Shown: positions 42,852 to 64,000, numbered from the stretch's first letter. The stretch is 64,000 nucleotides of DNA from an uncultured virus (IMG/VR IMGVR_UViG_3300015608_004663) (IMGVR_UViG_3300015608_004663); one strand, 5' to 3'. The notes: generated from the letters alone by a model not told the origin. Translations and numbers: made by a program.

Positions 42852-42872
42852 AAGCGCAAACGCAGAAGATCG

Positions 42873-45783: not shown

Positions 45784-46125
45784 ATGAAAAAGCAAACAAA
45801 AATTATTGCTACGCTGTGCTGCGCTCTGCTGGGTGCGTGCGTAAGTCTGTCTACGCTAACGCATGATTTTGCTGATAGATCAGCAGTTGCTAGACAGCTA
45901 GATGATGGCAAATCTGAATTGACGTTGAAGTGTCAGCGCACAAGTCTTGAAGGTGTTCAGCTTGCAAAGCGCGATGCAGTAGCAGCTTTATTAACAAAGA
46001 AGCGCGCTGATGAATTAAGAGCTGCTGTTTATGAAGCGTGCAAACATACGGAGATGCAACATGACATGGTGGACAAATCTGTTAGAGATGGTGGCGTCAG
46101 CGATAACAAAGTTGACGCAAACTGA
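45784..46125 (+). CDS. Putative lipoprotein
   Basis: MKKQTKIIATLCCALLGAC signal with lipobox. Confidence 0.7.
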   Translation: MKKQTKIIATLCCALLGACVSLSTLTHDFADRSAVARQLDDGKSELTLKCQRTSLEGVQLAKRDAVAALLTKKRADELRAAVYEACKHTEMQHDMVDKSVRDGGVSDNKVDAN

Positions 46126-46213
46126 GCGAAAGAAAGCAGACAAAGACCAGCAAGATATCATTGATGATATCAAAGCAGCAGAAGCTGTTAGAAAAAAAAC
46201 AAATTCTAACTGA
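46061..46213 (+). CDS. Small amphipathic protein overlapping the lipoprotein gene
   Basis: MTWWTNLLEMVASAITKL...; ggag upstream. Confidence 0.45.
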   Translation: MTWWTNLLEMVASAITKLTQTERKKADKDQQDIIDDIKAAEAVRKKTNSN

Positions 46214-51007: not shown

Positions 51008-51377
51008 ATCGAGCTGCTCAGTCAATCGAGAGTCGCAGAGCTTGTGCAAAAAAGCAATCAGCTCTGAGGAAAGTCCGAGCTTCACAGAGCGTAGCGCTAG
51101 CTAACAGCTAGTCAGAGCAATCTGAAGAACGTGCAACAGAAAGCAAACAGCCGAAGTCTTCAAGACTGGCAATGGTGAAACGGTGCGGTAAGAGCGCACC
51201 ATGTCACTGGTGACAGTGACAGTTTGGTAACTCCGCTAGAAGCAAGATCGCGCAGAGAGTGATGATGCTGCTCGCGTAGCTCTCGGGTAGATCGCTAGAG
51301 CGATGCAGTGATGCATCGCCAAGACAAATGACTCTCTAACAACAGAACTCGGCTTATGATTGACTGAGCAGCTCGAT
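51008..51377 (+). ncRNA. rnpB: Ribonuclease P RNA, bacterial type A
   Basis: GAGGAAAGTCCGAGC (51066), GTGCAACAGAAAGCAAA, GGTGAAACGGTGCGGTAAGAGCGCACC, ACAGAACTCGGCTTAT; perfect 20-bp P1 (51008-51027/51358-51377); P2 GAGAGTC/GACTCTC; P8 CTAGC/GCTAG; P9, P14 and P18 hairpins with GNRA loops; GGT in L15. Confidence 0.97.
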
Positions 51378-51381
51378 CAGA

Positions 51382-52125
51382 TCAGCGAGCAAATGAATTT
51401 TTCATGATAGATCTTGAATCCCACCGCGATCCTGGCTGGAAGCTCTTTGAAACGATCTTGTATCGTGCGATAAGAGCATTTTCTCTGCAGAGCTTGATGT
51501 AAGCTCCCTCTCTCTGATCTATTGCAGAGTAAGCTGATTTTCCCTCTCGGTGTGAGATGACAATAGATTTAAACTGCTCTAAATTTGGGATCGTTTTCGT
51601 GCAGAGCAAGCCATGAACCACTGAAAACCCTGATTTTTGCAGGGCTTCTCTAGCAGAGATAGAATCAATGAAGTGGCGCTCAGACGGGATCCAAACATCA
51701 TACGCTAAAAACACATCTGGCAGCGCATTGTACTTGATAGAGTGACAAGCGAACAACCACTCTCCGTACACAACGACTCTTTCTCCTAAAAGCTGAGCGA
51801 GTGATTCAAACAGCGCTTTGCGCTGGTACATCCACGTCCATAAAGAAGAGAATTGCATCTTTGCAGGCGTCTTAGCGCTGAAGCTCTTTCTCAAGAAGTG
51901 ATTTCTGTTTCTTGCGATCGGTTGATCTTGCTCATCAAAAGCTACGCCAAGATTTGCACCGTCAACTTTCTCTTCGATCTGGAGAGAGTCGCAGCTAGAG
52001 AGCGCTTGCTTGATCTCATCTTCACTAGCGATCAGATCATCACGACTGGTGTTTGCTTCCCATGGAAGGTGCTTAGTGCGCGGGAAATCAAAGATCTCTA
52101 CTTTTGTCACAGCAGACATGATCAA
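51382..52125 (-). CDS. RNA ligase family protein (ATP-dependent, Rnl2-type nucleotidyltransferase domain)
   Basis: FPRTKHLPW, EEKVDGANLG, YGEWLFACHSIKY, FLAYDV, REGAYIK, RYKIV. Confidence 0.9.
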   Translation of the reverse strand: MIMSAVTKVEIFDFPRTKHLPWEANTSRDDLIASEDEIKQALSSCDSLQIEEKVDGANLGVAFDEQDQPIARNRNHFLRKSFSAKTPAKMQFSSLWTWMYQRKALFESLAQLLGERVVVYGEWLFACHSIKYNALPDVFLAYDVWIPSERHFIDSISAREALQKSGFSVVHGLLCTKTIPNLEQFKSIVISHREGKSAYSAIDQREGAYIKLCRENALIARYKIVSKSFQPGSRWDSRSIMKNSFAR

Positions 52126-52246
52126 ACCTCATTTCACACAAGCTCTCTTGATCATCAGCGCGAGAGCTCGATCGATCGCTTCTTTTATCAGATCTTTCAG
52201 ATGTTTCGCGCTCAGCACAGTGACTCCTTTTTGGCGCTCGCTCAGA

Positions 52247-52840
52247 TCACTTGAGTCGAATGACTAGCTCTCTGCTCGAAGACGGCGCCCAACCGCTTGT
52301 TGACGCTGCCCAGCCTGCGGTCAGCAGCCTTGATGCAAGCTGAGATGCATCTATAGCGCTCTTCGCTGCTTGAGCGTCTCTACTTGTCCATCTGGTCTTG
52401 TCGCGAGCGCTGACGAAGTTGCCAGGGCCGATCTTGATCTCGCTGCGCCGCCTGCGCAGAAGATCTGCGATCTGCTCGATCGCTCGCTCAGTCGCGCCAG
52501 AAGATCTTAACTCAGATTCAACAGTGCTTATCACGCTCTCATCTGCGCTGTCGCTCACAACTCTTGATCTGACGCTTGGCAACACGACGCTGTCGCTGGT
52601 CGCGATCCACGCCGCGCTCGCTGGATCGAACTTCAGCTCAGCGGGTGAACCAGGTTCACCCGCGTAGTGCTTACCGCCCTTATCAACTGCGATCACGAAA
52701 TTTGGGTGCTGCTGCAGCAGCTTCATAGCTGATTTTCTAAGTGGCGTCACAAGCTTCCCGCTTCTTGGATCCCACAGCTCCAACCGAGACTCGCTGATCA
52801 CCGTCTCTTTGATCAATTCTCTGATCATTCTTAAGCTCAT
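52247..52840 (-). CDS. Putative internal head protein; paralog of 53093..53764
   Basis: Leader LRMIRELIKETVISE; shared domain DP...LL...P...D..G..YAGEPGSPAELKF. Confidence 0.65.
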   Translation of the reverse strand: MSLRMIRELIKETVISESRLELWDPRSGKLVTPLRKSAMKLLQQHPNFVIAVDKGGKHYAGEPGSPAELKFDPASAAWIATSDSVVLPSVRSRVVSDSADESVISTVESELRSSGATERAIEQIADLLRRRRSEIKIGPGNFVSARDKTRWTSRDAQAAKSAIDASQLASRLLTAGWAASTSGWAPSSSRELVIRLK

Positions 52841-53092
52841 GCAAGTTAAGTATAGGCTTCAGATCAAGCGACGCTCTCGACATTTTTGCAGGGCGCTCGC
52901 GATCAAAAAGCGCGGCGCCGACCAGTGAAATCATCATTATGAAAAATCAGAGCAAGCAAAAACATCTAAGTGATCTGTGGGAGCGATCTCGCAATCAAGA
53001 TCGCAAAGATCTAGAAAAGAGCTGATCGAGCACGGTGCACTCTGATTCAGATCTTCTCAAATTTATAAGATTCTTATCTGTTACGCGCTAGC

Positions 53093-53764
53093 TCAAGCGA
53101 GCCTTAACATAGCAGCTTTCACAGCTGCTCGCTCAGCGCGAGTGCCGTGATCGATCACGTCTTCTACGCAGCCATTAGCGATCAGATCGTCTGCAGACTG
53201 CTCACCTGGATTCAGCTCTGGGATCGAAGCGATCGCTCTCGCTGCTAGCTGCTTACACTTATAAAAGATCTCAAGTCGCGCGTCTTCTGCTGCTTCTGTC
53301 TTCGGTTTTGGACCAAAGAGAGCGATGATGTCAGCTCTTGTCGGTCGCTCATCGAGCTCCGTCTTATCTGATTCAAGCTGCAGCAGGTGATCGCGAGCTG
53401 CCGCAGCTTGCAGCGCTTGCAACTTAGCGCCAGTGATAGCTCCACGCGGGATGCGCACGTCACTGTATGTGCCATCGATCCACTGTGGTTCTGTGTATCT
53501 GCCAGTCGGCCGGCCACCGCCACCAAAGATCGGCTTCGGTCCCCATTTCAAACAAGCTGGCATGCCAGGGTGCCCAGCGAACCATGCGCCAGAGCTGTCT
53601 CTGACAACTGCGAGATCTGGCTCTCTTGTCAGAAGCAACCGAGCGTGAGCTTCTGACGCGGGACGCTCCTCACTCAGAGTTGGATCAAACACTGTCACGC
53701 TCTCTGAGAAGAGGGCTTCAGAGATCAGCTGTCTCAGCAGTGATGTACTATCTTTTCTTCGCAT
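53093..53764 (-). CDS. Putative internal head protein; paralog of 52247..52840
   Basis: Leader LLRQLISEALFSE; FAGHPGMPACLKW. Confidence 0.65.
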   Translation of the reverse strand: MRRKDSTSLLRQLISEALFSESVTVFDPTLSEERPASEAHARLLLTREPDLAVVRDSSGAWFAGHPGMPACLKWGPKPIFGGGGRPTGRYTEPQWIDGTYSDVRIPRGAITGAKLQALQAAAARDHLLQLESDKTELDERPTRADIIALFGPKPKTEAAEDARLEIFYKCKQLAARAIASIPELNPGEQSADDLIANGCVEDVIDHGTRAERAAVKAAMLRLA

Positions 53765-53776
53765 CTTTTAACCTCT

Positions 53777-54004
53777 CTATCGCTTCGCTAGCCAGCGAGC
53801 GGAGTATCTCGCTGCATCAAGCGCAGCTTTTAAACCTTCAACGCCAACTTTGTGAAAATCAAGTGAGTCGCTGTTCTGTGAGCGAAGACTCTTGATACGC
53901 AAGTGATGTTTTGCGATCTTTTCAAGAACGTTCAGCGGCGCGACACTAGTGTCTACTGCTTCTCTGATGATCGTCTTAAGCGAATTTAACGTGTCTGTCT
54001 TCAT
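53777..54004 (-). CDS. DUF6900-like domain protein with L-x-x-II-x-E leader
   Basis: LEKIAKHHLRIKSLRSQNSDSLDFHKVGVEGLKAALDAA; leader LKTIIREAV. Confidence 0.7.
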   Translation of the reverse strand: MKTDTLNSLKTIIREAVDTSVAPLNVLEKIAKHHLRIKSLRSQNSDSLDFHKVGVEGLKAALDAARYSARWLAKR

Positions 54005-54049
54005 ACCGTCTACCGTGCAGAGTAACTATCAGATCTGTTCAGATCTAGA

Positions 54050-54442
54050 TCACAGATCTAAAACAACGGCTCTCTCACGCCAGTCTCTCGCGCCTGGCAT
54101 CTCGTGCTCAAACCCAATGCGCTTCAAGACAGAGAACTGCTCAGCAGTGAGCAGATCAGCGCGCTTGATCTTGATCTGCTCAGCACTGTGCTCTATCGCC
54201 CACTGCGTCAGCAGATCGACTGCTTCACTGATGTCAGCTTGTTCACCGATCATCTCAAGTCGAACGACGATAGAATCATCAGCGCTCTTGTGAAATGCGC
54301 ACTGAAACGATCTCGCAGCGCCCCACTTGATCTTTGGATAGTTTGTGCAAGACAGCGCATTGCGACCGTGAATGACAATCTCTGGCGCGCTGTCAATCTC
54401 TTCTTGTGCGATCTCTGTGATCAGTCTGTATAAAAGCGTCAT
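54050..54442 (-). CDS. Hypothetical protein with LLYRLITE leader; weak GNAT-like C-terminus
   Basis: LLTQWAIEHSAEQIKI...VLKRIGFE. Confidence 0.6.
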   Translation of the reverse strand: MTLLYRLITEIAQEEIDSAPEIVIHGRNALSCTNYPKIKWGAARSFQCAFHKSADDSIVVRLEMIGEQADISEAVDLLTQWAIEHSAEQIKIKRADLLTAEQFSVLKRIGFEHEMPGARDWRERAVVLDL

Positions 54443-54512
54443 GTTTTCAGTTCGCTATCGCGTCTCTCTGACACTCATAAATATCTGTTCGCAGCAGATC
54501 TTTGTCTTGACT

Positions 54513-54542
54513 GTGCATCTTATTTCACTGTCGTGATATGAT
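54513..54542 (+). promoter_or_regulatory. Putative early promoter GTGCAT-N18-TATGAT
   Basis: The -10 box lies 6 nt upstream of the ATG at 54549. Confidence 0.65.
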
Positions 54543-54548
54543 CATCAC

Positions 54549-54590
54549 ATGATTGAAGAGCTGCCTGGCGATCTTTGGGTTAGTGACTGA
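54549..54590 (+). pseudogene. Truncated PGDL-family gene
   Basis: MIEELPGDLWVSD followed by TGA. Confidence 0.5.
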
Positions 54591-54619
54591 AGACTGATCA
54601 CCATAAAAGATGGAAACTC

Positions 54620-54844
54620 TTGAATAAGATTAAACAAACAAAGCCTGGTGATCTCTACGCATTCACTGACCAAGATCGCCATGGTTATTGTGGATACGCA
54701 GACGCTGTGCTGATCGTGTTTGTTGAAGATAATGATAAGCTTGCTCTCACCGCCTGCCGTGTTTCTGCCACTCTGACAAACAGTGATATTTACGCGCGAA
54801 CTTCTTATGGCCTCATTCTCAGAGATCGTGTTAAGCTGATATGA
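54620..54844 (+). CDS. PGDL-family small protein
   Basis: TKPGDLYAF...VLIVFVE. Confidence 0.65.
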   Translation: MNKIKQTKPGDLYAFTDQDRHGYCGYADAVLIVFVEDNDKLALTACRVSATLTNSDIYARTSYGLILRDRVKLI

Positions 54845-55048
54845 CACAGAAGCGACTAGATTCTTAAACTTGTTAAGTTGCAGAGAAATCGCATGCGTCT
54901 CTCTGAGAAGAGCGCAACTTTGAAAGAAGCGCACTGTTTTGAGACTCTTCTGCTCTCTAAGATCTATGATGACATAGGCGCGTTTAAGAACGCGAGCTCT
55001 GTCTTCTGATGTTGTGCAATCTTTCACAAATAGAGATATGATCTGATC

Positions 55049-55243
55049 ATGTCGACAAGACACAACTTCGAAGCCAATCTGCGGGCAGGAGATGTTTTTT
55101 ATGGATCTTGGAGTCGCGCCATCGACTTGATATTGATCATCTCAACTGGACGCCATAGCGCGCTCGTTGTGAAAGCAAACGCCGCGCAGTGTGACATCAA
55201 AGATGTCTACTATTCAGCTATTTACGTTAGAAAGAGACTGTAA
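55049..55243 (+). CDS. PGDL-family small protein
   Basis: LRAGDVFYG...LILIIS. Confidence 0.6.
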   Translation: MSTRHNFEANLRAGDVFYGSWSRAIDLILIISTGRHSALVVKANAAQCDIKDVYYSAIYVRKRL

Positions 55244-55464
55244 TGTCAGATTCACAAGGCGCAGAAGAGAGCGATCAGACAGTCTTCGCTGGTGATTTGA
55301 TGTCGCGCGGTTCTGATCTGGGCTTCGCGATCTCGTGTGACTGCAGCATCATCTTGTACGCTGAGAGCAATCTGACTGACGCTTTTCACTTAGCAGTGTT
55401 CAGCTTTCACTGCTGGAGCTTTTTTTCAGATCATTTTGATCTCATAGAGCGAGCTAGCTCATGA
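55243..55464 (+). CDS. PGDL-family small protein
   Basis: VFAGDLMSR...GFAISC; TAATG overlap with the previous gene. Confidence 0.55.
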   Translation: MSDSQGAEESDQTVFAGDLMSRGSDLGFAISCDCSIILYAESNLTDAFHLAVFSFHCWSFFSDHFDLIERASS

Positions 55465-55574
55465 CAGGCTAGCGGAGACTTGCTACCTGACTGTTACGCA
55501 TCAGCGACAGATCTCTTGATAACTGCTGATCTCAGCGACGATTCACTTGCATCGCAAGGTCAATTCTGACGCAA

Positions 55575-55830
55575 GAATTCTCGGGAATCTCGTGAGACAG
55601 AGTGACCGAATCAGGCGACGAAAAATCTCGGGAAATTTTTTGTGAACAGCGGCTTGAACTGAACGGCGAGAATCTCGGGAATTTGTGCGCAGCCCAGGGC
55701 ACACCCGACCGCCCTCGAGAGCCCTATACATGTTGGCCAGCCCCAGCCCCCCGTTTTATGGGGCCTTTTATGGCCCTTGTTATGGGGCCCCTCTGTGGGC
55801 TTGCTGGGAAAGACAAAGGGGGGGCCTGCA
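55575..55830. repeat. Non-coding element: three TCTCGGGAA boxes at 47-bp period, then TTATGG(GG)CC repeats and C/G tracts
   Basis: Boxes start at 55579, 55626 and 55673; ttatggggcc/ttatggccc/ttatggggcccc follow; G-tracts up to G7. Confidence 0.75.
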
Positions 55831-55978
55831 ACTAGCAGTGTCGAAGCAACTTCAGCGTTGCGCTCGCGTCGCAAGTCCTCTTGATACTGGGTCTGAAAGT
55901 CAGCGATGAAGCGCAGCGGGTCTTCAGTGCGGCGCAGGATGCTCTTGCAAATCGGCGAGGATAGCTCAGCAGAGACGA

Positions 55979-56173
55979 TCAGGAATTAGCATTAGATGAT
56001 CTCTTCTCAGCATTCCACTGTCGCTGCGCGATCGCTGTGTTGAGTTGCTGCTGACGCAGGTGCACATCCCAGCAATATGTGCAGTAGCCCGGTTTTGGCT
56101 TAGCTGCACCCACAGGGCCGTAGGGTGTATTACATGAGCTGCAGATGTAGCGAGGTCGCTGTGGTGTAGTCAT
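55979..56173 (-). CDS. Small Zn-finger protein
   Basis: CSSC...CTYC. Confidence 0.6.
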   Translation of the reverse strand: MTTPQRPRYICSSCNTPYGPVGAAKPKPGYCTYCWDVHLRQQQLNTAIAQRQWNAEKRSSNANS

Positions 56174-56213
56174 TGGATCACTTTGTGTTTCTTCAGAACG
56201 GCGAACATCACCG

Positions 56214-56429
56214 TCACAGCGACAGCAGATGCGCTAAGAGCGGATTGACTGCGTTAAGCGCACAGCTACCCTCGATCACGAGCTTGCCATCGCGCTCAAT
56301 CACGCCTGTTACATCACCGATAAGTGGATCCGTGTCGTCATCAGCGGCTGAGGTGCTCTCAAGTTGCACGGTCGCTGAGCCAGGTATCTTTGACTGCTGC
56401 AAGAGCGAAATCAGTTGATCTTTGGTCAT
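56214..56429 (-). CDS. Hypothetical protein
   Basis: aagga RBS; MTKDQLISLLQQ... Confidence 0.6.
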   Translation of the reverse strand: MTKDQLISLLQQSKIPGSATVQLESTSAADDDTDPLIGDVTGVIERDGKLVIEGSCALNAVNPLLAHLLSL

Positions 56430-56453
56430 CGTGTCATCCTTTCAGCGCAGAGA

Positions 56454-56666
56454 TCACCTCTTTACCCTAGAGATCAGCCTCATGTTGAAGAACGGTTTGT
56501 AGCAGTGAATTGTCGCCGATGCGCTTGCGTCTCTATCATCTGATCGAGCGCAAATGTACAAGACGTCTGCTCCATCACCAGAATCGTGAGTGATGCACAA
56601 GACAAGTCCTCAGCTTGGCCGCGGCGATCGCAGCAAGTCACCTGGGTTTGTCGGCTCTTCTCTCAT
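56454..56666 (-). pseudogene. PGDL-family gene with in-frame TGA
   Basis: MREEPTNPGDLLRSPRPS*GLVLCITHDSGDGADVLYIC...; stop at 56610-56612 in an otherwise full-length 70-codon frame. Confidence 0.65.
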
Positions 56667-57176
56667 TGTTTCGCTCTGTCCCAAGCATCTGCTAAAGATC
56701 TAGCCTCGATGAGGCGTTGCTTTGACGCAATGAGCTGCTGCGACAAGCAGATGATCGCTGGTCAGAAAATCTGACTCACTCCAGCTCACTCATTTGAGTC
56801 TCGATCTTGCTCACGACAGTCAACGTTAGCAAGATCGCTAGCGGCAGCAGACACCAGACAGCTGCGACTCCACTAAGATACATCATCAGACCAAGAGTAA
56901 TAGCTAGAGCACAGGCTACGTAGAAAACTGGTTGCATCTGTTCACCTCACTGTCATCATCACGCCAGGTTGCTTCTCAAAGTCAAGACGCATGCGCGCCG
57001 TGAGCTGTTGCAGCGCTCATAACGTGCTAGACCGGTCTAGACGTCGTATACGAGGTGCTACGAGGCCTCCCGCGCCGTTGCGGCCAGGCGGTTGTCCGGC
57101 GCCTTGGGCTCGAAGATCATCAGGTAGCCATCAACCGGCGTGTTGTTGGCCATCACCGTGTTCCACGTGTGCGAGA

Positions 57177-57383
57177 TCACCAGCGGCAGGTTCGATGTGA
57201 ACTGCTCGATGCAACCAAGCCGTATCCTCGTATGCAACGAGGACATTTCACGCGCTCGACAGTGAACGTACCAATGCGGTCAGCCCACTGACAGCGCTCA
57301 ATTTCTCCTGATTGGAAGCCAATCCAAGCGTGACACGTATCACACTGCACACGTCTGTATTCAGGTTCAAGTATTACTGGCAT
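57177..57383 (-). CDS. Small Zn-ribbon protein
   Basis: CDTC...CPRC; ggaggg RBS. Confidence 0.65.
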   Translation of the reverse strand: MPVILEPEYRRVQCDTCHAWIGFQSGEIERCQWADRIGTFTVERVKCPRCIRGYGLVASSSSHRTCRW

Positions 57384-57567
57384 TGTTCCCTCCTCTCTGT
57401 CCTCGACTGTACTTGGTAGTCAAGATCTTCAAGCAACAAAAGCTGCTCTGGCGCCTGCGCGTTGCTCAGTCGTAGCTGTTTGGTACTTCTTCATGATCTT
57501 GCCTCACAGTGTTTGTTGCGCGCATCTCAGTCAAGCGCGCTTCACAGTCCACGCGCTGCAAATTGCG

Positions 57568-57780
57568 TCACTCTAGACAAGTTAGATTCACGATGCCAGC
57601 TTCACTCATGATCTCGCTCTTGATGCTGAGTGTGTTAGCTCGCTCAGAGAAAAAATCAGCGACGATGATCTGAACTGCCTGCTTGGCGACGGCGGCGCAG
57701 ATGAACATGTCAATCGTTTTGATCGTTGTGTGTCTGAGCAGCAGATCACCTGGTGCTGCGATCGATCGGTCACTGCGCAC
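57568..57780 (-). CDS. PGDL-family small protein
   Basis: AAPGDLLLRH...MFICAAV. Confidence 0.65.
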   Translation of the reverse strand: MRSDRSIAAPGDLLLRHTTIKTIDMFICAAVAKQAVQIIVADFFSERANTLSIKSEIMSEAGIVNLTCLE

Positions 57781-58006
57781 TGGAGATCCTCCCTAGCCAC
57801 TCTGTGGCTGTGTCGATCTGCACGATCTTTGTGCTGATCATGATTGGGTTGCGATCTGCTTTCAGCAGATCTTGAGGCTTCGTTTTAAGAAACAGGTAAA
57901 ACATACCTGAGTGACCGATAGCAAAGTACAAGCTGATGGTTCCGTCTTTCCAAGATCGCCAGAAAAGCTCGCCAGGTTTAGAGACGCTTGCACATTGATC
58001 GCGCAT
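57770..58006 (-). CDS. PGDL-family small protein
   Basis: SKPGELFWR...LYFAIG. Confidence 0.65.
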   Translation of the reverse strand: MRDQCASVSKPGELFWRSWKDGTISLYFAIGHSGMFYLFLKTKPQDLLKADRNPIMISTKIVQIDTATEWLGRISSAQ

Positions 58007-58007
58007 T

Positions 58008-58223
58008 TCACTCTGCCCACAGTCTAGTCATCACCTGCCGCTGAAGCATGTGGTTGATCTGCTGCAGCGAGATCTGCGAGATGCTGAGCAAGATCGTGTC
58101 GTCTTCGTAAGACATCATCAAAGTTTTTGCAGTAGCATCATCGCAGTGCACGACAATGTGCAAGATCTTCGTACTTGGAAACCACGCGCGAGAAAAAAGA
58201 GCACCTGGAGCGTTCTTGTGCAT
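58008..58223 (-). CDS. PGDL-family small protein
   Basis: NAPGALFSR...LHIVVH. Confidence 0.65.
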   Translation of the reverse strand: MHKNAPGALFSRAWFPSTKILHIVVHCDDATAKTLMMSYEDDTILLSISQISLQQINHMLQRQVMTRLWAE

Positions 58224-58226
58224 TTG

Positions 58227-58435
58227 CTATTCTCTGCAAGCTGATTGTACTGCAGCTCGCTGTGACATTTCACTGAGCTTGATGAAAAAGTCTGGGTGAT
58301 TCAGCTGCGAGATAACTGTCGATCCATCAATATCTGTGAAGATGCCCAGCGCTGCTCGATCTGAGCAGTCAGCAAGAATCAAGCAAAACGTCGCTGCGCC
58401 GAACAGCAACAGAGTGCGCTTCTGCAGCAGATCAC
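58227..58435 (-). CDS. PGDL-family small protein, 5' end in assembly gap
   Basis: Sequence resumes at gt-GAT-CTG-CTG (DLLQKR...FCLILAD). Confidence 0.55.
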
Positions 58436-58466
58436 NNNNNNNNNNNNNNNNNNNNNNNNNNNNNNA

Positions 58467-58678
58467 CTCCATAGCAAGCCATGATCTGGTGGGTCGTACA
58501 CTGCGCTAAAGATCGCGCACCGAACATCACTCTAGATCATGATCGATGACATGATTTTGTCTTCACCAGTCACAGAGTGCAAGCAGAGTGTCATTATCGA
58601 AATGTTGCAATCATACTTGAAATAATACAAATCGCCCGGCGACATCCGCCGCGCTTGCTTGGTGTCATCCGCGCTCAT
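58467..58678 (-). pseudogene. PGDL-family gene with probable premature TAG
   Basis: MSADD...MSPGDLYYF...SIMI*SDVRCAIFSAVYD...; the frame continues past the TAG at 58532. Confidence 0.5.
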
Positions 58679-58874
58679 TGCACCACCACAGAAAACTGTG
58701 ACGTGATTTTGAGGCTGATGCGTGCACAGCACCAAAAGAGATCACATCATCGCTATAAACAGTCATCGAGCGAAGCGTGTCAGAAGTTTCACTCCACAAG
58801 CAAACTGTGATAGCGCAAAGTCCAAGGCTGCGGTGAACTAGCAGATCACCCGGTGATGCCCTGCGATCAATCAT
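58665..58874 (-). CDS. PGDL-family small protein
   Basis: ASPGDLLVH...ITVCLW. Confidence 0.7.
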   Translation of the reverse strand: MIDRRASPGDLLVHRSLGLCAITVCLWSETSDTLRSMTVYSDDVISFGAVHASASKSRHSFLWWCNERG

Positions 58875-59089
58875 TCAAACCTCCAGTTAGCGTCAGCGTG
58901 CTGCGCTTTTCGCTCGCTCCATTCTGGAGCATTCTGATCTTCACATCTTGAGCATCNNNNNNNNNNNNNNNNNNNNNNNNNNNNNNNNNNNNNNNNNNNN
59001 NNNNNNNNNNNNNNNNNNNNNNNNNNNNNNNNNNNNNATCTGAACAGCAGATCACCAGGCTTTGCGCTCAAATCACTCACGACTGGCAT
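58871..59089 (-). CDS. PGDL-family small protein spanning an assembly gap
   Basis: AKPGDLLFR, then N gap 58957-59037. Confidence 0.55.
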   Translation of the reverse strand: MPVVSDLSAKPGDLLFRXXXXXXXXXXXXXXXXXXXXXXXXXXXXCSRCEDQNAPEWSERKAQHADANWRFE

Positions 59090-59270
59090 CTTTCGCAGCA
59101 GTTAGTCGCAGAAACCCGCGCTGGAGCCACTCTTCGCGCAGCACCATGATTTCTGGAAAGTTTGCAGAGCAAGCAATCACATGGAACTCAGACGTGAAGC
59201 AGAGAGCGATCCGCGCATTGCTGCTTGCGTCTACAAACAGATCACCGGGTGTGTACTTCTGCGATTTCAT
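59073..59270 (-). CDS. PGDL-family small protein
   Basis: YTPGDLFVD...IALCF. Confidence 0.7.
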   Translation of the reverse strand: MKSQKYTPGDLFVDASSNARIALCFTSEFHVIACSANFPEIMVLREEWLQRGFLRLTAAKDASRE

Positions 59271-59291
59271 GACATCACTTTGCCTTGCTCT

Positions 59292-59489
59292 TCAAAACGA
59301 TGCACTTTTGCAAGAGATCGTGCGTGGCAAGTACTGCGCGTTTAGGTTTATCAGCTCGTACTTTTCAAGGTCATCTGTCATCAGCTTTAGATCGCCGTCT
59401 TTGCTAGCAGAGATGATAATGTACAGTTCGATGCTTTGAGCTGGATAGATCAAGAGATCACCCGGGTTATAGCTTCTAGCTTTTCTCAT
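59292..59489 (-). CDS. PGDL-family small protein
   Basis: YNPGDLLIY...LYIIISA. Confidence 0.7.
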   Translation of the reverse strand: MRKARSYNPGDLLIYPAQSIELYIIISASKDGDLKLMTDDLEKYELINLNAQYLPRTISCKSASF

Positions 59490-59682
59490 GCTGCTGCTTT
59501 TTAAGCTTGAGCAAAAATGTCATATCGAACTTTCGCGCGTAGATTTTCGCTTCATCCAATGACAGGCCAGCGTAAAACCACAAGCACAGCTGCTTGTCGT
59601 CGTCTGCATCAGCGCACTCGACAACGCAAAACAAGAAGTTATCAACAAAGAAAAGGTGACCTGGCTCTCGTGAGCTGCTCAC
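59476..59682 (-). CDS. PGDL-family small protein
   Basis: REPGHLFFV...LFCVVE; GTG start overlaps the upstream stop. Confidence 0.6.
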   Translation of the reverse strand: MSSSREPGHLFFVDNFLFCVVECADADDDKQLCLWFYAGLSLDEAKIYARKFDMTFLLKLKKQQHEKS

Positions 59683-60182
59683 TGCTCTTCTCCGTTGAAG
59701 GGCCAAGAATCGGGAGAGCTTGAGTACGCACCCGCAGATCCACCCACAAGTTTCAAAGCAGCTACGATAAGATCGACGTCTTCTTGCGCAATAGATTTCA
59801 GCCGCTCAAGCGCAGGTCTTTTCAGACAGGGTGATCTGCGATAGTTTATATCGTCCACGCTGTTGAGCGGCCTCTGCACACCAGCGCGGCCGTACAGCTC
59901 GTCTTCTATCCAACCGCACATCTTCTCTTGATTGTCTTGCTGCTTGATGCGCTTACGAGACAGATGCGCTTCATCTTCAAGACCGTAATCATCGGTATCG
60001 CGCTTGCTGGGATCTGCAGCAAGCCAGTGACAGAACTCGTGCAGCAAGCCCTCAACGTCATTCAGAGGCACGCAGATCTTGCCAGAGGGTGATGTCCACG
60101 TGTAGAACGAAGCGGTCTTGACTGAGCGACAAGTCAGTCTTTCTACAATGTTTGATAGCGCTTCAAAAGCTGGTGTCCACAT
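59679..60182 (-). CDS. HExxH-motif protein (EpmC-like motif)
   Basis: LLHEFCHWLAADPSKRDTDDYGL. Confidence 0.65.
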   Translation of the reverse strand: MWTPAFEALSNIVERLTCRSVKTASFYTWTSPSGKICVPLNDVEGLLHEFCHWLAADPSKRDTDDYGLEDEAHLSRKRIKQQDNQEKMCGWIEDELYGRAGVQRPLNSVDDINYRRSPCLKRPALERLKSIAQEDVDLIVAALKLVGGSAGAYSSSPDSWPFNGEEQ

Positions 60183-60189
60183 GTTACGC

Positions 60190-60390
60190 TCACGCTAGCT
60201 TTTCCCCATAGCAGCCAATAAGCTTTGAGTTGAGCACTATCTTGCCAGAGCCGTCCCGTTGAAGCCCAAAGCACACATCTGCTGTAGTTAAGCTGCACGC
60301 AATGATCAAAATCATTCTGTTACCTAACCCAACAACGCAAAGATCGCCGGGTGCAAGATCAGTCAATAAGCTGCGCCAATGTGCTTTCAT
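60190..60390 (-). CDS. PGDL-family small protein
   Basis: LAPGDLCVV...MILIIAC. Confidence 0.7.
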   Translation of the reverse strand: MKAHWRSLLTDLAPGDLCVVGLGNRMILIIACSLTTADVCFGLQRDGSGKIVLNSKLIGCYGEKLA

Positions 60391-60734
60391 ATTCGATCTC
60401 GCTCAGCAGCTTCTGCAGATCTTTTTGCGTTGATCTGCTCTGATATGATTGCTTGACGAGCAGCAAGCTTGTCAAGCAGCTCTTTGGTCGCATCAATCAC
60501 AGCGTGACCGCGACTTGTGTCAAGTTCAAAGTTTGCGTTCACAAGAGCGGTCAGGAGCGTTCCGTCATCATTGATGATAGAAGCGAAAGTTGCGTTTGTA
60601 TAAACATCGCTCAGCGCTTGGTACGAGCTCGTGAACACATCACAAACTCGACCCACATAAGAGATCTCTAGCACTTCTTCATCAACGCACTGCAGCGCGC
60701 TGTTCCACTGTCTGACGTACCTGAAGATTGGCAT
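60387..60734 (-). CDS. Hypothetical protein
   Basis: MPIFRYVRQW...; aagga RBS; ATG at 60734. Confidence 0.65.
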   Translation of the reverse strand: MPIFRYVRQWNSALQCVDEEVLEISYVGRVCDVFTSSYQALSDVYTNATFASIINDDGTLLTALVNANFELDTSRGHAVIDATKELLDKLAARQAIISEQINAKRSAEAAERDRI

Positions 60735-60760
60735 AGTTGATCCTTGACTTAGATAGAATC

Positions 60761-60875
60761 GTATCAAATCTGGTGCAAGATTNNNNNNNNNNNNNNNNNN
60801 NNNNNNNNNNNNNNNNNNNNNNNNNNNNNNNNNNNNNNNNNNNNNNNNNNNNNAATCTTGCACCAGATTTGATAC
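60761..60875. repeat. Perfect 22-bp inverted repeat flanking an N gap, at a divergent gene junction
   Basis: GTATCAAATCTGGTGCAAGATT (60761-60782) / AATCTTGCACCAGATTTGATAC (60854-60875). Confidence 0.75.
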
Positions 60876-60937
60876 TGTTCTACCAAGCTATCAGGTGATA
60901 GCAAGCTGTTACCTGCACTATTGCTTGCACAGAGGCA

Positions 60938-61126
60938 ATGATGACGATGAGCAACCGAGTAGTTGACGCAGGTAACAACGAGACTTGGACAATTGGTTGC
61001 TTTCCTCAAGCTGATGGCACGTTTCTAGCGATGACTTTCACGGACTCGCGCATCTTCAAGACTCAGAAAGGCGCCGAGAAGTGGCTAGCCAAGCGCGGCT
61101 ACAGTCTGCGCGGTGAGGTGCTCTGA
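60938..61126 (+). CDS. DUF1391-like small phage protein
   Basis: DAGNNE...GCFPQADGTFLAMTFTDSRIFKTQKGAEKWLAKRG. Confidence 0.75.
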   Translation: MMTMSNRVVDAGNNETWTIGCFPQADGTFLAMTFTDSRIFKTQKGAEKWLAKRGYSLRGEVL

Positions 61127-61416
61127 TGCCCAAGCGATCAAGCAGCAACAAAGCAAAAAAATCTAGCGCGCTTCAAGCAAAGCTTGNNNNNNNNNNNNNN
61201 NNNNNNNNNNNNNNNNNNNNNNNNNNNNNNNNNNNNNNNNNNNNNNNNNNNNNNNNNNNNNNNNNNNNNNNNNNNNNNNNNNNNNNNNNNNNNNNNNNNN
61301 NNNNNNNNNNNNATAGATCCTAACACTGGTCTTTGTCGGTACGGTTATGTTTGGAACCCGCAGCCGCGAGCAAACATCATTGTATCACACTTGTCTGACT
61401 AACGGTGAATCTTAAA

Positions 61417-61607
61417 ATGAAGCACATTACGTCAACAAAACCGGGAGATCTGCTGCTAAAAGCGGGCACTTGCTCATAGCTGTCGATGGCGATCCAATAA
61501 CAAAGCACGCAGTCGTGGCAGAGCATGATGTGAAGATCGCTTGTGTCAAGATGATCTACAGCGAGCAGATGAAATCAGAAATCATCAGCTCTGCGAGCAG
61601 AGATTGA
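61417..61607 (+). pseudogene. PGDL-family gene with a 1-nt frameshift at an A4 run
   Basis: MKHITSTKPGDLLL; the shifted frame gives SGHLLIAVDGDPITKHAVVAEHDVKIACVK... to TGA at 61605-61607, just before the next ATG. Confidence 0.65.
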
Positions 61608-61610
61608 ATC

Positions 61611-61967
61611 ATGCGCAAAGACGAGATTCACTTGGGTCCGTGGCATCGCGGCTTAAGATGGACTGGTGAGCTTTGCTTCGTAGATGATTGCTCAACGCAC
61701 GATTTTTCGTACGATGATGTGACAGACGTCATAGCGTGCAGTCAGTCACAAGCCTATGATTTGTACGGGAGCATCGTTGCTGTTGTGAAGCTTAAAGACG
61801 GGCGATACGCCGCGTGGGAGACATCTTGGGGACCGAGCGGCCATGGCTTCTCTGAGAGCAGGTACGGCGGAAATGCAGATGTCATCGTTGCAAACTCTCT
61901 TAGAAAGCTGTTCTTCGCTCTTTCAGAACACAGCAGATACAAGCTTATTCAGGAGCTAGGGCTGTGA
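61611..61967 (+). CDS. Hypothetical protein
   Basis: 118 aa; VVKLKDGRYAAWETSWGPSGHGF. Confidence 0.7.
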   Translation: MRKDEIHLGPWHRGLRWTGELCFVDDCSTHDFSYDDVTDVIACSQSQAYDLYGSIVAVVKLKDGRYAAWETSWGPSGHGFSESRYGGNADVIVANSLRKLFFALSEHSRYKLIQELGL

Positions 61968-62170
61968 TCGAACCCGGTGCGCTGCTGCTGCTGAATGAAA
62001 AGATGTTCTCATCGCGAGAGCTGCTGACATGGTTTGTGATTTGCGTCTCTGATGCAAAGACTGCTAGCGATGCGCGCAGAATGAAAGTTATCACTGCTGG
62101 CTGCGACACTCCCGCATCGCTAGCATCAATCGCGATCACACCTCAAGATCTGATCAAGTTAATTCGATGA
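61964..62170 (+). CDS. PGDL-family small protein
   Basis: MIEPGALLLL...FVICVS; ggag RBS. Confidence 0.65.
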   Translation: MIEPGALLLLNEKMFSSRELLTWFVICVSDAKTASDARRMKVITAGCDTPASLASIAITPQDLIKLIR

Positions 62171-62415
62171 ATCATCAAAAACAGAGCAACACTCCAGGTG
62201 AAATCTTCGCAGTGCAACACAACTGGCAGACCGAGCAAGCCTCGCCGCGGTGGTTTAACATATCGATCTGCATCAGCTTAAGCAAGACGTCAGATTGCTG
62301 GCTGCGATTGTTTGGTGATGGAACGCTCGAGTTCGAGCAGGTGCACCAAACCTCGAGAAGCGCAGAGATCACTTCAATCAAGCTTGCAAGCATCAGAGCA
62401 GAAGAAAATTCTTAG
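62167..62415 (+). CDS. PGDL-family small protein
   Basis: NTPGEIFAV...ISICIS...LFGDGTL. Confidence 0.65.
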   Translation: MNHQKQSNTPGEIFAVQHNWQTEQASPRWFNISICISLSKTSDCWLRLFGDGTLEFEQVHQTSRSAEITSIKLASIRAEENS

Positions 62416-62727
62416 CAAGAAGATCTTCTGTTTTGCGATCCTTTGTTGAAGATCATCATTGATGGCGAAGATGATGGATCTCTGTTCCTGCTCGCTGCTG
62501 CAATCCTGAAGCGAGGTTAAGAAACACGATTGGTTATCGCGACAGATCGCAGATAATCTTCTCAAGTTACTTCTTAGTCTAAGAAGAGCTCACCGCGATT
62601 GTTGAGAGCAGACACGCTGTCACTGCTCGCTCATCTTCTAATAGCAACACAGCTCACGCTTCATTCAGCCTTGTCGTTATCACAACAGCTACAAATTCAG
62701 TGTTCTACGAAGAGAGCGTGATTGATA

Positions 62728-62937
62728 TCATGCTAAGATCGTTTCGTGCATTGTGAACACGCAAGCGAACGTTCGCGCAAACTGCGCTGCGCCTGCTGCT
62801 GAGATCTCAAGAACAAGACTCTGATTAGAAGCTGTTTCAACAAACATCTGTATGCAGCGTGCTTCACGATTGTTGTGAGTGATCAGCATGCCAGGCACTG
62901 CCGTGACTCTTGAATCATCGCGCTGCGTTTTGAGCAT
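62728..62937 (-). CDS. PGDL-family small protein
   Basis: AVPGMLITH...CIQMFVE. Confidence 0.6.
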   Translation of the reverse strand: MLKTQRDDSRVTAVPGMLITHNNREARCIQMFVETASNQSLVLEISAAGAAQFARTFACVFTMHETILA

Positions 62938-62976
62938 CTTCGCGCCTCAGTAACTTTCATCTGTGAACAGTTTAGA

Positions 62977-63183
62977 TCAAGACAACACTAGCTCTAGCTC
63001 ATCTGGGATGTCAGCTGTGCGAAATTGTCTGTCTTGCGCATGAAACACAAGCTTTGTCTGAGTTTCTTGATTGACTGAAATGCATATGATCGGTGCGATG
63101 ATCGAGCGCCGGCCAGCGCTGCCATCACGTCTCATGCGCTCAACGAAGTAACGATAGCGCGTCAGTTCACCAGGGATGCACAC
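62977..63183 (-). CDS. PGDL-family small protein
   Basis: CIPGELTRY...IICISV. Confidence 0.6.
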   Translation of the reverse strand: MCIPGELTRYRYFVERMRRDGSAGRRSIIAPIICISVNQETQTKLVFHAQDRQFRTADIPDELELVLS

Positions 63184-63198
63184 CGTGACACTCTGAAC

Positions 63199-63549
63199 CT
63201 AGGATAGGTATCCTATCTGCCACTCTTGCAAGATGCCCTTAGAGTCAAACGAGCACACTCTAAGACCGTCAGAATCAGCTGTCTCAATGGTGACTGCGTT
63301 GTGATCAAGCTCGCCGAGCTCGATCATCTCACCAACTTTGGCGATGATTGGTTCTGAGTTTGTTGCGACGATCAAGTGAGTTGCAGTCACGTCTCGCTGG
63401 GCGCCAGACAGAATGTGATTGAAGAAGTGCACCTGTTCTGACGCTCTGCGCTGAGCAGCTGGGTGAAGCGCTAGCGTGACATCTTGTCGATCTACCAAAG
63501 AAACATCTAGAAGATGTGACACTCTTGCATCAATAGCGCTCAGATCACC
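63199..63549 (-). CDS. Hypothetical protein beginning at GDL immediately after an assembly gap
   Basis: The frame extends upstream of the tracked start as GDLSAIDARVSHLL... to the gap at 63550. Confidence 0.55.
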   Translation of the reverse strand, partial: GDLSAIDARVSHLLDVSLVDRQDVTLALHPAAQRRASEQVHFFNHILSGAQRDVTATHLIVATNSEPIIAKVGEMIELGELDHNAVTIETADSDGLRVCSFDSKGILQEWQIGYLS

Positions 63550-63629
63550 NNNNNNNNNNNNNNNNNNNNNNNNNNNNNNNNNNNNNNNNNNNNNNNNNNN
63601 NNNNNNNNNNNNNNNNNNNNNNNNNNNNN

Positions 63630-63692
63630 CGCGAAGGGCTGGATGATGATCAGATCACCAGGAAGCACGCTGTGCTCTTCGTTAGCTTTCAT
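63630..63692 (-). CDS. PGDL-family gene, 3' part in assembly gap
   Basis: MKANEEHSVLPGDLIIIQPFA. Confidence 0.6.
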
Positions 63693-63701
63693 CTGATTTG
63701 C

Positions 63702-63929
63702 TCATTTAGCGCGCACAATCACATCGCAGCTCTCGCGCTTAGATAGAGTCTGGCGCATTTTGAGATTAAAGTTAGTTGGGCTGTCTCGGCACGAGAGTGA
63801 TAATGTGCACACGATATCAGCTGATATCGTGTGCACGACTATGTTGCACGAGGCGTAATAATGGTCAATGATCAGATCGCCAGGATGAACAACAGAAAGC
63901 TCTAGGCGTTGATCGTTTTCATTTTTCAT
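63702..63929 (-). CDS. PGDL-family small protein
   Basis: MKNE...VHPGDLIIDH...NIVVH. Confidence 0.65.
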   Translation of the reverse strand: MKNENDQRLELSVVHPGDLIIDHYYASCNIVVHTISADIVCTLSLSCRDSPTNFNLKMRQTLSKRESCDVIVRAK

Positions 63930-64000
63930 CTGAAATCTTTCACGCAAGATCGTCAACTCCAAAGCAGAGCTCGTCACACGGATGATCAGCGGGTCTGATG

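What the first reader, a model, noticed from the sequence alone, without database searches (positions are those of the whole stretch)
54549..64000. Array of more than 20 divergent 'PGDL' micro-genes showing birth-and-death evolution
Seen: most 60-85 aa ORFs here, on both strands and packed with overlapping stop/start codons, share one layout. A short polar N-tail is followed by PG(D/E)L-hydrophobic, a variable loop, a very hydrophobic beta-strand often containing Cys (LYIIISA, LVLCITH, FVICVS, IICISV) and further short strands. Beyond that pattern they are highly divergent. Outliers occur at 40355, 49314 and 50480. Established: PGD-hydrophobic starts are typical of KOW/SH3-like beta-barrels. 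Inference: this is an expanded, fast-diversifying family of tiny barrel proteins, possibly a library of early host-takeover or anti-defence binders or decoys. I do not recognise it as a named system.
Basis: partly seen in the sequence, partly recalled or inferred. Interest (0 to 1): 0.8.

Follow-up and report, generated by a model that had tools for sequence, protein, structure and literature searches.

The report
Array of tiny PGDL-motif phage genes
An uncultured large wastewater phage carries about twenty tightly packed genes for very small proteins that share one short opening motif and a similar layout but little else; they are probably small beta-barrel binding proteins of untested function.

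Summary
In 54549-64000 the motif PG(D/E)-hydrophobic occurs 17 times in six-frame translation, against 2 in the other 54.5 kb and 0.95 in shuffles. It always lies near the N-terminus of a small ORF. I count 17 intact candidates, 3 partly N-masked ones and 3 decayed copies. Leave-one-out profiles support 10-12 of the 17. A codon model prefers the annotated frame in 18 of 20. Strain variants keep the frames open.

Beyond about 12 residues around the motif the members do not align. They share only length and the spacing of hydrophobic strands.

No Pfam, PHROG, NCBIfam or PDB sequence relative exists. A profile search of 1.84 billion proteins returned only this phage's own strains.

The fold evidence is weak. 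It leans to an SH3/KOW/Tudor-like barrel for one or two members and is uninformative for others. The function is untested.

'Death' of copies is shown. Recent 'birth' is not.

This scan has noted similar small-barrel paralogue arrays in other phages.

By-catch: a full-length RNase P RNA gene at 51018-51371.

The parts
54549..54590 (+). 13-codon stub of a member (M-I-E-E-L-PGDL-W-V-S-D-stop)
54620..54844 (+). Member, 74 aa, PGDL at residue 9. Leave-one-out support is weak (6 non-members score higher).
55049..55243 (+). Weak candidate, 64 aa, AGDV. Not supported by leave-one-out.
55243..55464 (+). Weak candidate, 73 aa, AGDL. Not supported by leave-one-out.
56454..56666 (-). Decayed member. PGDL head and typical body lie in one frame, interrupted by an in-frame TGA at 56610-56612. 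A strain contig of run X7 covers 56566-56855 without any difference.
57568..57780 (-). Member, 70 aa, PGDL. Strain variants carry a -1/+1 pair 9 nt apart that restores the frame.
57770..58006 (-). Member, 78 aa, PGEL. One strain (run X7) has an exact 24-nt in-frame tandem duplication after 57910.
58008..58223 (-). Member, 71 aa, PGAL
58227..58472 (-). Member, 81 aa. The motif region is hidden by the N run 58436-58465; 'DLL' follows the mask.
58532..58645 (-). Short member, 37 aa from the ATG at 58645, PGDL at residue 3
58665..58874 (-). Member, 69 aa, PGDL
58871..59089 (-). Member, 72 aa, PGDL. The body is partly hidden by the N run 58957-59037.
59073..59270 (-). Member, 65 aa, PGDL. AlphaFold model with pLDDT 61 and strand order E-E-E-E-H-E.
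59292..59489 (-). Member, 65 aa, PGDL. A strain SNP changes the motif Gly to Ser.
59476..59682 (-). Member, 68 aa from a GTG that overlaps the upstream stop (GTGA), PGHL
60190..60390 (-). Member, 66 aa, PGDL; ATGA overlap with the upstream gene
61417..61607 (+). Frameshifted member. The PGDL head (61417-61479) and the body (61470-61607) lie in different frames. A strain contig of run X5 covers 61313-62310 without a gap.
61964..62170 (+). Member, 68 aa, PGAL
62167..62415 (+). Member, 82 aa, PGEI
62728..62937 (-). Weak candidate, 69 aa, PGML. Not supported by leave-one-out.
62977..63183 (-). Weak candidate, 68 aa, PGEL. Not supported by leave-one-out. All four listed strain SNPs are nonsynonymous.
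63540..63692 (-). Member, PGDL. The body is hidden by the N run 63550-63629.
63702..63929 (-). Member, 75 aa from the ATG at 63929 (91 aa from the GTG at 63977), PGDL
57568..60863 (-). Tightly packed same-strand block of 13 genes. Eleven are family members. The other two are non-family genes: 59679-60182 (carries an H-E-x-x-H motif) and 60387-60863.

Best explanation
Shown. The last 9.5 kb of the window belongs to an uncultured myovirus-like phage on a contig of about 190.9 kb, found in wastewater metagenome runs. This stretch holds a lineage-restricted multigene family. There are about 20 genes for 37-82-aa proteins plus 3 decayed copies. They are packed into same-strand blocks with overlapping stops and starts. 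They are protein-coding, and their reading frames are kept open between strains.

Inferred. They descend from one ancestral gene by old tandem duplications and have since diverged beyond alignment. What remains is a short polar N-tail followed by P-G-(D/E)-L-hydrophobic. This motif opens beta-strand 1. A very hydrophobic, often Cys-containing strand 2 follows about 10 residues later, and further short strands come after. Together these most likely form a five-stranded SH3-like small beta-barrel.

Most likely mechanism (inferred, untested). They are cytoplasmic, non-enzymatic binding modules made from polycistronic messages. Each paralogue presents a different surface on the same small scaffold and binds a different host or phage macromolecule. 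The roles could be host takeover, counter-defence or host-range adaptation. Single copies are dispensable, so copies are lost by nonsense, frameshift and truncation.
For: Motif enrichment and position.

Leave-one-out recognition: 10 of 17 rank first and 2 rank second among 462 other ORFs.

Coding:
- A codon model trained on 12 neighbouring long genes prefers the annotated frame in 18 of 20.
- SD-like 4-mers lie upstream of 6 of 20 starts, against 7.8% at random positions.
- Start/stop overlaps are frequent.
- Ten members, or near-identical strain versions of them, are present as predicted proteins in the public protein libraries searched; one more strain version turned up (sequence).

Frames are maintained between strains: a -1/+1 indel pair 9 nt apart in 57568-57780, which matches protein P0003, and an exact 24-nt in-frame tandem duplication in 57770-58006.

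Decay of copies.

Shared strand layout. AlphaFold places strands 1-3 at matching positions in two different members (E12-16/E21-25/E33-38 and E11-14/E20-24/E31-34). The better model (pLDDT 61) has E-E-E-E-short helix-E.

Fold leads.
- The VIA-align top rows for that model are mostly SH3-like barrels: NusG KOW 1m1g (Z 4.0, rmsd 3.1, 52 aligned), YorP 2heq (Z 3.9), PcrA Tudor 5dma (Z 3.8, rmsd 2.5, 46 aligned), Spt5 KOW, Lsm and NdhS.
- The ESM Atlas structural neighbours of 59292-59489 are TraI 2B and NusG KOW, all under the tool's bar.

Neutral pI values (4.1-9.6, mostly 5.5-8.5) and no long hydrophobic stretch argue for soluble proteins.
Against: Alignment beyond the motif is nearly absent.
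- All-against-all BLASTP gave a best E of 0.008.
- Leave-one-out profiles built from bodies only gave a median rank of 40 of 244, with 4 of 17 ranking worse than 100.
- hhalign of two half-families aligns only 12 columns, with probability 40%.
Common descent of the bodies is therefore not shown.

Five of the 17 candidates fail leave-one-out.

Fold evidence is weak.
- pLDDT is 54 and 61.
- No Foldseek match reaches E 0.001 or better in PDB or BFVD.
- Best VIA Z is 4.1, where the tool says Z under 8 may be a common arrangement.
- The other model gives no SH3-like list.
- The second Atlas member has pLDDT 0.45 and unrelated neighbours.

Seven of the 8 listed SNP sites in members are nonsynonymous. 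This fits relaxed constraint as well as diversifying selection. Only 40 of 147 differences were listed.

There are no data on expression, timing or partners.
Confidence: 0.5

Rival explanations
1. Shared N-terminal tag on otherwise unrelated small proteins. In this reading the PGDL segment is a common signal and not a structural strand. It could be a docking, processing or packaging tag, working like the capsid-targeting sequence of T4 internal proteins. The bodies would be different cargo or effector peptides.
For: Only about 12 columns around the motif align between half-families. Bodies carry almost no profile signal. The motif is always N-terminal. DNA-level repeats in the region are confined to the 15-19 nt that encode the motif.
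Against: The N-tails before the motif vary from 2 to 15 residues and share no residue, unlike a fixed-length tag. The T4 comparison is from recall. Lengths are tightly clustered (64-82 aa for 16 of 17 intact candidates). Hydrophobic strands recur at the same distances from the motif. AlphaFold builds the motif into strand 1 in both models. No protease-site-like conserved residue was seen.
Confidence: 0.12
2. Mostly decaying or neutral leftovers. An old expansion is now under little selection. The ORFs stay open by chance and short length, and the motif survives because it was the most constrained part, or through the genome's preference for GATC (GAT-CTN encodes D-L).
For: There are three disrupted copies and one 37-aa form. 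Seven of the 8 listed SNP sites in members are nonsynonymous, including a Gly-to-Ser change in the motif itself. A 7-nt deletion occurs in one member in a low-depth strain contig. GATC exceeds synonymous-shuffle expectation in every gene set.
Against: The annotated frame has the best codon score in 18 of 20. The compensated frameshift and the in-frame duplication show that the frame matters. Twenty open frames of 37-82 codons packed with overlapping starts and stops are not expected from decay. The third position of the Pro codon varies freely among motifs while the amino acids are kept, so conservation is at the protein level.
Confidence: 0.15
3. LSm/Hfq-like RNA-binding regulators. The barrels would act on RNA (stability or translation), as was proposed for the predicted LSm-like T4 early proteins GoF, MotB.1 and Frd.2.
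For: Lsm chains appear among the weak structure matches. The abstract of PMC12152347 describes dissimilar T4 early proteins that share a predicted LSm-like fold. The window also holds three RNA ligases, a SpoU methylase and an RNase P RNA gene, so this phage invests in RNA biology.
Against: The models have no N-terminal helix before strand 1. That this helix is typical of Sm folds is from recall. The proteins are not basic. Lsm matches score no better than KOW, Tudor or SH3 ones. The homodimer job gave no verdict and is not counted either way.
Confidence: 0.1
4. A repeated DNA or RNA site (CCNGGTGATCTGCTG) is the selected feature, for example a protein-binding or methylation site, and the peptide motif is a by-product.
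For: Fifteen- to nineteen-nt DNA repeats cover the motif. GATC is enriched genome-wide beyond coding needs.
Against: The motif is always in the same reading frame and orientation relative to a start codon 2-15 codons upstream. Variants keep the amino-acid class while changing the DNA: GAG-CTT, GAA-ATT, GAT-TTG. Pro and Gly third positions vary.
Confidence: 0.03

Closest known systems
SH3-like small beta-barrels: KOW domains of NusG/Spt5, Tudor domains of PcrA/UvrD, B. subtilis SPbeta protein YorP (PDB 1m1g, 4zn3, 5dma, 2heq)
   Same: The size is similar (about 50-70 residues). The predicted strand order is E-E-E-E-short helix-E. A Gly-Asp-hydrophobic segment opens strand 1; that this is typical of KOW is from recall. 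These folds fill the top of the weak structure-match list and the Atlas neighbours of one member.
   Different: No sequence match to any Pfam family, KOW included, was found at E up to 10. Structure scores are below significance (Z 4.1 or less). The proteins are free-standing and not domains of larger proteins. They occur as about 20 paralogues in one phage.
T4 early proteins GoF, MotB.1 and Frd.2, predicted LSm-like fold family (PMC12152347; outline and abstract read)
   Same: They are small phage proteins with very dissimilar sequences that are proposed to share a small-barrel fold. Their function is largely unknown.
   Different: T4 has three dispersed genes, not a tandem array of about 20. 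No PGDL motif is reported in the abstract. I did not compare the sequences. The models here lack an N-terminal helix.
Arrays of diverged small beta-barrel paralogues noted earlier in this scan: phiEco32-like and rV5-like coliphages, and giant soil phages (e1-155473, e1-157138, e1-221540, e1-253093, e1-287782, e1-311411, e1-4091469; AI notes)
   Same: They show the same general picture: 4-11 tandem, highly diverged, 70-90-aa genes in accessory or early regions, read as SH3-like barrels of unknown function. One of them carries a 'PG' signature.
   Different: None of the PHROGs named in those notes matched any of the 17 members. Sequence look-up of one member found no look-alike window. This array is larger, and its members are even less alike.
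T4 internal proteins (IPI-III) with an N-terminal capsid-targeting sequence (recalled, not looked up)
   Same: A short conserved N-terminal element sits on otherwise variable small proteins, encoded in a variable region of a large myovirus.
   Different: The N-tails here vary in length (2-15 residues) and sequence. No conserved cleavage residue is seen. Packaging into virions is untested.

Membership tests
KOW (Pfam PF00467) | Sequence match to the KOW profile | tested here: not met
   A Pfam scan of 17 members at E up to 10 lists only three unrelated single-member chance hits and no KOW. HMMER filters drop most matches above about 0.1.
SH3-like small beta-barrel fold class | Five antiparallel strands closing a barrel, with a short 3-10 helix between strands 4 and 5 (definition recalled) | tested here: inconclusive
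   The model of 59073-59270 has E11-14, E20-24, E31-34, E42-44, H46-51 and E53-56, but pLDDT is 61 and pTM 0.39. The model of 59292-59489 has only three strands at pLDDT 54. VIA-align gives Z 4.1 or less, with KOW, Tudor, SH3 and Lsm chains on top. The other model gives no such list. Foldseek finds nothing at E 0.001 or better.
T4 GoF / MotB.1 / Frd.2 LSm-like early proteins | [quoted passage not shown] | not tested
   Only the abstract was read. No sequence or model comparison with the T4 proteins was run. Expression timing cannot be tested with these tools.
Any PHROG, Pfam or NCBIfam family | Significant profile match | tested here: not met
   PHROG: 0 families for 16 members at E up to 0.01, and 5 different single-member hits among 17 members at E up to 10, best 0.006. 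Pfam. NCBIfam. A PDB sequence profile search found only a chance PGELFVH match in beta-carbonic anhydrase at E 0.13.
T4-type internal proteins with capsid-targeting sequence | Conserved N-terminal leader of fixed length ending at a prohead-protease site (definition recalled) | tested here: not met
   The tails before the motif are 2-15 residues long with no shared residue.
T4-type internal proteins with capsid-targeting sequence | Presence in virions | not testable with these tools
   No virion proteome exists for this uncultured phage.
Integron-like cassette array | Repeated recombination sites (attC-like inverted repeats) between the ORFs | tested here: not met
   The repeat search of 54400-64000 shows no shared intergenic element. 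The recurrent repeats are the 15-19 nt that encode the motif.

The most novel reading that the evidence does not exclude
The array is a phage-encoded repertoire of about 20 hyper-diverged mini-binders. Their conserved N-terminal PGDL segment would be a common handle that docks every paralogue onto one shared partner, such as the packaging or ejection machinery or a host hub protein. Their variable barrels would each neutralise a different host factor. In effect this would be an injected or early-acting effector library, analogous in logic to T4 internal proteins but built on an undescribed scaffold.
Probability: 0.08. Interest if true: 0.8.

Novelty: new variant of a known kind. Interest (0 to 1): 0.45.

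Why it matters
Large phages devote many kilobases to tiny genes that no database explains. Tandem families of small barrel proteins keep turning up in this scan, and T4 has a dispersed trio (PMC12152347, abstract).

This array has about 20 copies and shows both decay and frame-preserving change between strains. That makes it one of the larger examples, and it comes from an environment (wastewater) and a phage lineage with no cultured close relative.

If the members are binders with different targets, they are a ready-made panel for finding new phage-host interaction points. If they are mostly decaying, they show how fast such families erode.

On present evidence it is a solid descriptive finding with an open function, not a new mechanism.

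Tried and rejected
Relatives.
- Megablast of the region against 50,697 phage records: no match.
- tblastn of the 1254-aa neighbour: no match.
- The baseplate wedge protein finds only distant phages, at 26-29% identity: Flavobacterium phage immuto, Microcystis phage Mel-JY01 and an uncultured 484-kb phage.
- A profile search of those three records: nothing, and the tool says an empty answer shows nothing.
- My own scan of all 1244 ORFs of Mel-JY01: best HMM E 0.24, and 2 motif hits that look spurious. Immuto was not scanned in this way.
- Viral-contig scans with the 167-aa neighbour and with an RNA ligase: none confirmed.
- Metagenome-contig scan with one member: none confirmed.
- The family alignment could not be used for locus search because it has no conserved stretch.
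- No whole genome is held for this window, so the rest of the roughly 190-kb contig could not be scanned for further members.
- Word-indexed protein searches found only the phage's own or near-identical proteins.

Fold and binding.
- The homodimer job gave no verdict.
- The second Atlas query and the first AlphaFold model gave nothing coherent.

Expression.
- No RNA holder is listed.
- Run X16, labelled metatranscriptomic but 'probably DNA', has four exact contigs in the region. I do not count it.

Ideas dropped.
- A cyanobacterial host inferred from HIP1: GCGATCGC occurs only 6 times.
- RiPP precursor peptides: there is no long conserved leader, and the Pfam scan of 43 window ORFs named no peptide-modifying enzyme family.
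- Membrane peptides: hydrophobic runs are only 5-9 residues long.
- An integron-like array.
- A promoter or terminator pattern: counts do not differ from shuffles.

Full report
CONTEXT

The window is part of a contig of 190,941 bases. The window's own proteins are listed with that longest contig.

It looks like a large tailed phage. It has:
- a gp25-like baseplate protein;
- a baseplate wedge protein 26-29% identical over 98% of its length to those of Flavobacterium phage immuto, Microcystis phage Mel-JY01 and an uncultured phage of 484 kb;
- a weak match to a T4-type late sigma factor;
- three RNA ligases;
- a DenV-like glycosylase;
- a block of about a dozen sugar and glycosyltransferase genes.

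There is no near match in 50,697 phage records. Near-identical DNA occurs in wastewater metagenome runs. Run X5, from a study other than the best holders, covers all 30 bins of the region when laid. The region contains five N-masked runs. I left these as they are.

Yes.

Motif counts.
- The strict motif PG[DE][LIVFM] is found in 15 of 479 ORFs of 35 aa or more. Thirteen of them lie in the last 9.5 kb.
- In six-frame translation there are 17 hits in 54549-64000 against 2 in the other 54.5 kb. Two hundred shuffles of the region gave a mean of 0.95 and a maximum of 5.

Layout, from 18 unmasked copies anchored on the motif.
- Gly is invariant. Pro is present in 16 and Asp/Glu in 13.
- The next two positions are hydrophobic in 18 and 17.
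- Position 8 is never hydrophobic.
- Hydrophobic peaks follow at positions 14-18 and 27-30.
- The N-tails are 2-15 polar residues.

Cys is 3.2% in members, against 1.8% and 1.2% in longer genes.

The packing is as described. Thirteen genes lie on the minus strand from 60863 to 57568, with six start/stop overlaps (ATGA, GTGA or longer) and gaps of at most 59 nt. Similar overlaps occur on the plus strand at 55243, 61964 and 62167.

HOW MANY MEMBERS?

- Intact candidates: 17 (alignment A1).
- Partly masked: 3 more. Two show PGDL, and one shows only 'DLL' after the mask.
- Decayed: 3.
  - A 13-codon stub at 54549-54590.
  - A copy at 56454-56666 whose head and body are in one frame but separated by a TGA.
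  - A copy at 61417-61607 whose head and body are in different frames.
  - Strain contigs cover the last two sites without change.
- One further member is only 37 aa long (58532-58645).

In leave-one-out profile tests against 462 other ORFs of the window, 10 of the 17 rank first and 2 have one non-member above them. Five fail: 54620, 55049, 55243, 62728 and 62977.

Only 50480 comes near the profile, at E 0.07.

ARE THEY GENES?

- A codon model trained on 12 neighbouring long genes scores the annotated frame best of six in 18 of 20 candidates. All 12 training genes pass the same test, though they were not left out of training.
- SD-like 4-mers precede 6 of 20 starts, against 7.8% at random positions.
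- Between strains, a one-base deletion and a one-base insertion 9 nt apart restore the frame of 57568-57780. The predicted protein P0003 shows the resulting four-residue change.
- One strain has an exact 24-nt tandem duplication, 8 codons of the hydrophobic strand, in 57770-58006.
- A 7-nt deletion in 59073-59270 is seen in one contig of depth 2.1 and may be an error.
- Of the 8 SNP sites listed inside members, 7 change the amino acid. One turns the motif Gly into Ser. Only 40 of 147 differences were listed, so this is a hint of fast or relaxed protein evolution and not a measurement.

HOMOLOGY BEYOND THE MOTIF

This is the weak point.

- BLASTP among 11 seeds gives no pair below E 0.008.
- With tail and motif removed, leave-one-out profiles place the left-out body at a median rank of 40 of 244 small ORFs. 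The mean is 57.6 against 122.5 expected (my arithmetic). This is better than chance, but it could reflect composition alone.
- Profiles of two halves of the family align over only 12 columns around the motif, with probability 40% and E 2.9e-4.

The case for common descent therefore rests on four things: the motif and its position, the narrow length range, the shared spacing of hydrophobic strands, and the tandem arrangement.

DNA repeats in the region are limited to the 15-19 nt that encode the motif. No intergenic repeat exists. Pro and Gly third positions vary, and Glu or other variants use different DNA. The conservation is therefore at the protein level.

RELATIVES ELSEWHERE

None were found.

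- Pfam, PHROG and NCBIfam scans, and a PDB sequence search, gave only scattered chance hits.
- A profile search of 1.84 billion representative proteins returned 13 hits. Ten are the window's own members or near-identical strain versions.
- The other three are long proteins with 5-12 matched stretches. I inspected only P0010, which is a repetitive sequence. I regard all three as spurious.
- New members would score only about 10-20 bits, so distant relatives could not have been seen.
- The three most related phage records gave nothing.

FOLD

- AlphaFold with the paralogue alignment gave pLDDT 54 for 59292-59489 (three strands) and 61 for 59073-59270 (E-E-E-E-short helix-E). Strands 1-3 fall at matching positions in both.
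- For the better model, Foldseek finds nothing at E 0.001 or better in PDB or BFVD.
- VIA-align gives Z 4.1 or less. Its top rows are mostly SH3-like barrels: RecD SH3, NusG and Spt5 KOW, YorP, PcrA/UvrD Tudor, Lsm and NdhS.
- The ESM Atlas model of 59292-59489 (pLDDT 0.63) has TraI 2B and NusG KOW neighbours, all under the tool's bar.
- The weaker AlphaFold model and the Atlas model of 62167-62415 (pLDDT 0.45) give nothing coherent.

An SH3-like barrel is therefore the best guess. It is not established.

MECHANISM

I commit to small soluble binding modules on a common barrel scaffold, made from polycistronic blocks. Each paralogue would have a different partner, and the family would be diversified by old duplication and rapid change. 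My confidence is about 0.5 for the whole statement. It is about 0.85 for 'real coding family', about 0.5 for the fold, and about 0.3 for a host-takeover or counter-defence role.

The rivals are:
- a shared N-terminal tag on unrelated bodies (0.12);
- mostly decaying leftovers (0.15);
- LSm-like RNA binders, as proposed for T4 GoF (0.10);
- a DNA-level site (0.03).

'Birth-and-death' is half supported. Death is visible. Recent birth is not, and the strain contigs laid showed no member-sized gap or joint in the parts they covered.

COMPARISON AND NOVELTY

The closest known things are:
- SH3/KOW/Tudor barrels, by fold lead only;
- the T4 GoF/MotB.1/Frd.2 trio (PMC12152347, outline and abstract read);
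- several arrays of small barrel paralogues noted earlier by this scan in phiEco32-like, rV5-like and giant soil phages (unchecked AI notes).

None of the PHROGs named there matches the members.

I searched the literature with the terms and saw only listings. No paper on such arrays surfaced. One search does not show that none exists.

I file this as a new variant of a known kind: a new, lineage-restricted family of the recurring 'tandem tiny barrel proteins in phage accessory regions'.

Noticed in passing
window 51018-51371 (+): A full-length bacterial type-A RNase P RNA gene (Rfam RF00010, 277 bits, E 1.8e-89, model positions 1-367 of 367) sits in an intergenic gap between phage-like genes. 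No tRNA gene is present in the 64 kb. Only 3 of 50,697 phage records match it by blastn, at about 69% identity. One of the three is a Salmonella enterica record and the other two are unannotated contigs labelled 'Acinetobacter phage', so they may be bacterial sequence. Three literature searches (listings only) showed no paper on a phage-encoded RNase P RNA. This may deserve its own follow-up.
   Followed up: partly
whole window, strongest at 52000-58000: GATC is strongly over-represented. For example there are 47 per 2 kb at 52-54 kb, against 7.7 expected from base composition. AGATCT occurs 84 times and TGATCA 67 times, but GGATCC only 6 times. In all four gene sets tested, GATC exceeds the expectation from synonymous-codon shuffles, for example 111 against 67 (sd 5.5) and 57 against 37 (sd 4.7). 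Something selects for GATC at the DNA level. The D-L of the family motif is mostly encoded GAT-CTN.
   Followed up: partly
window 41766-47495 (-): Three membrane-transporter genes (EamA-like, MFS/POT, amino-acid permease) lie among phage-like genes, which is unusual cargo for a phage.
   Followed up: no
window 59679-60182 (-): A 167-aa gene inside the array carries an H-E-F-C-H (HExxH) motif. It may be a small metallopeptidase. There is no significant Pfam or PHROG hit.
   Followed up: partly
window 57177-57383 and 55813-56128: These two short stretches (a zinc-ribbon ORF and its neighbourhood) are covered at roughly 80-90% identity by contigs of far higher depth than the phage itself. Summed depth reaches about 750, of which about 12 is the phage's own strain contig. 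They are therefore shared with much more abundant organisms or phages in the same samples.
   Followed up: no
window 40609-41013 (-): A 134-aa ORF whose C-terminal part reads K-P-G-D-T-V-L-V-E-L followed by alternating hydrophobic strands. It could be a longer protein that ends in a similar small barrel. There is no Pfam hit at E up to 1.
   Followed up: partly
L006 (PP395634.1) about 111500-115400: Microcystis phage Mel-JY01 has its own run of seven consecutive genes of similar size (516-582 nt each, about 170-195 codons, all annotated hypothetical). This may be another tandem paralogue family. I did not compare them.
   Followed up: no
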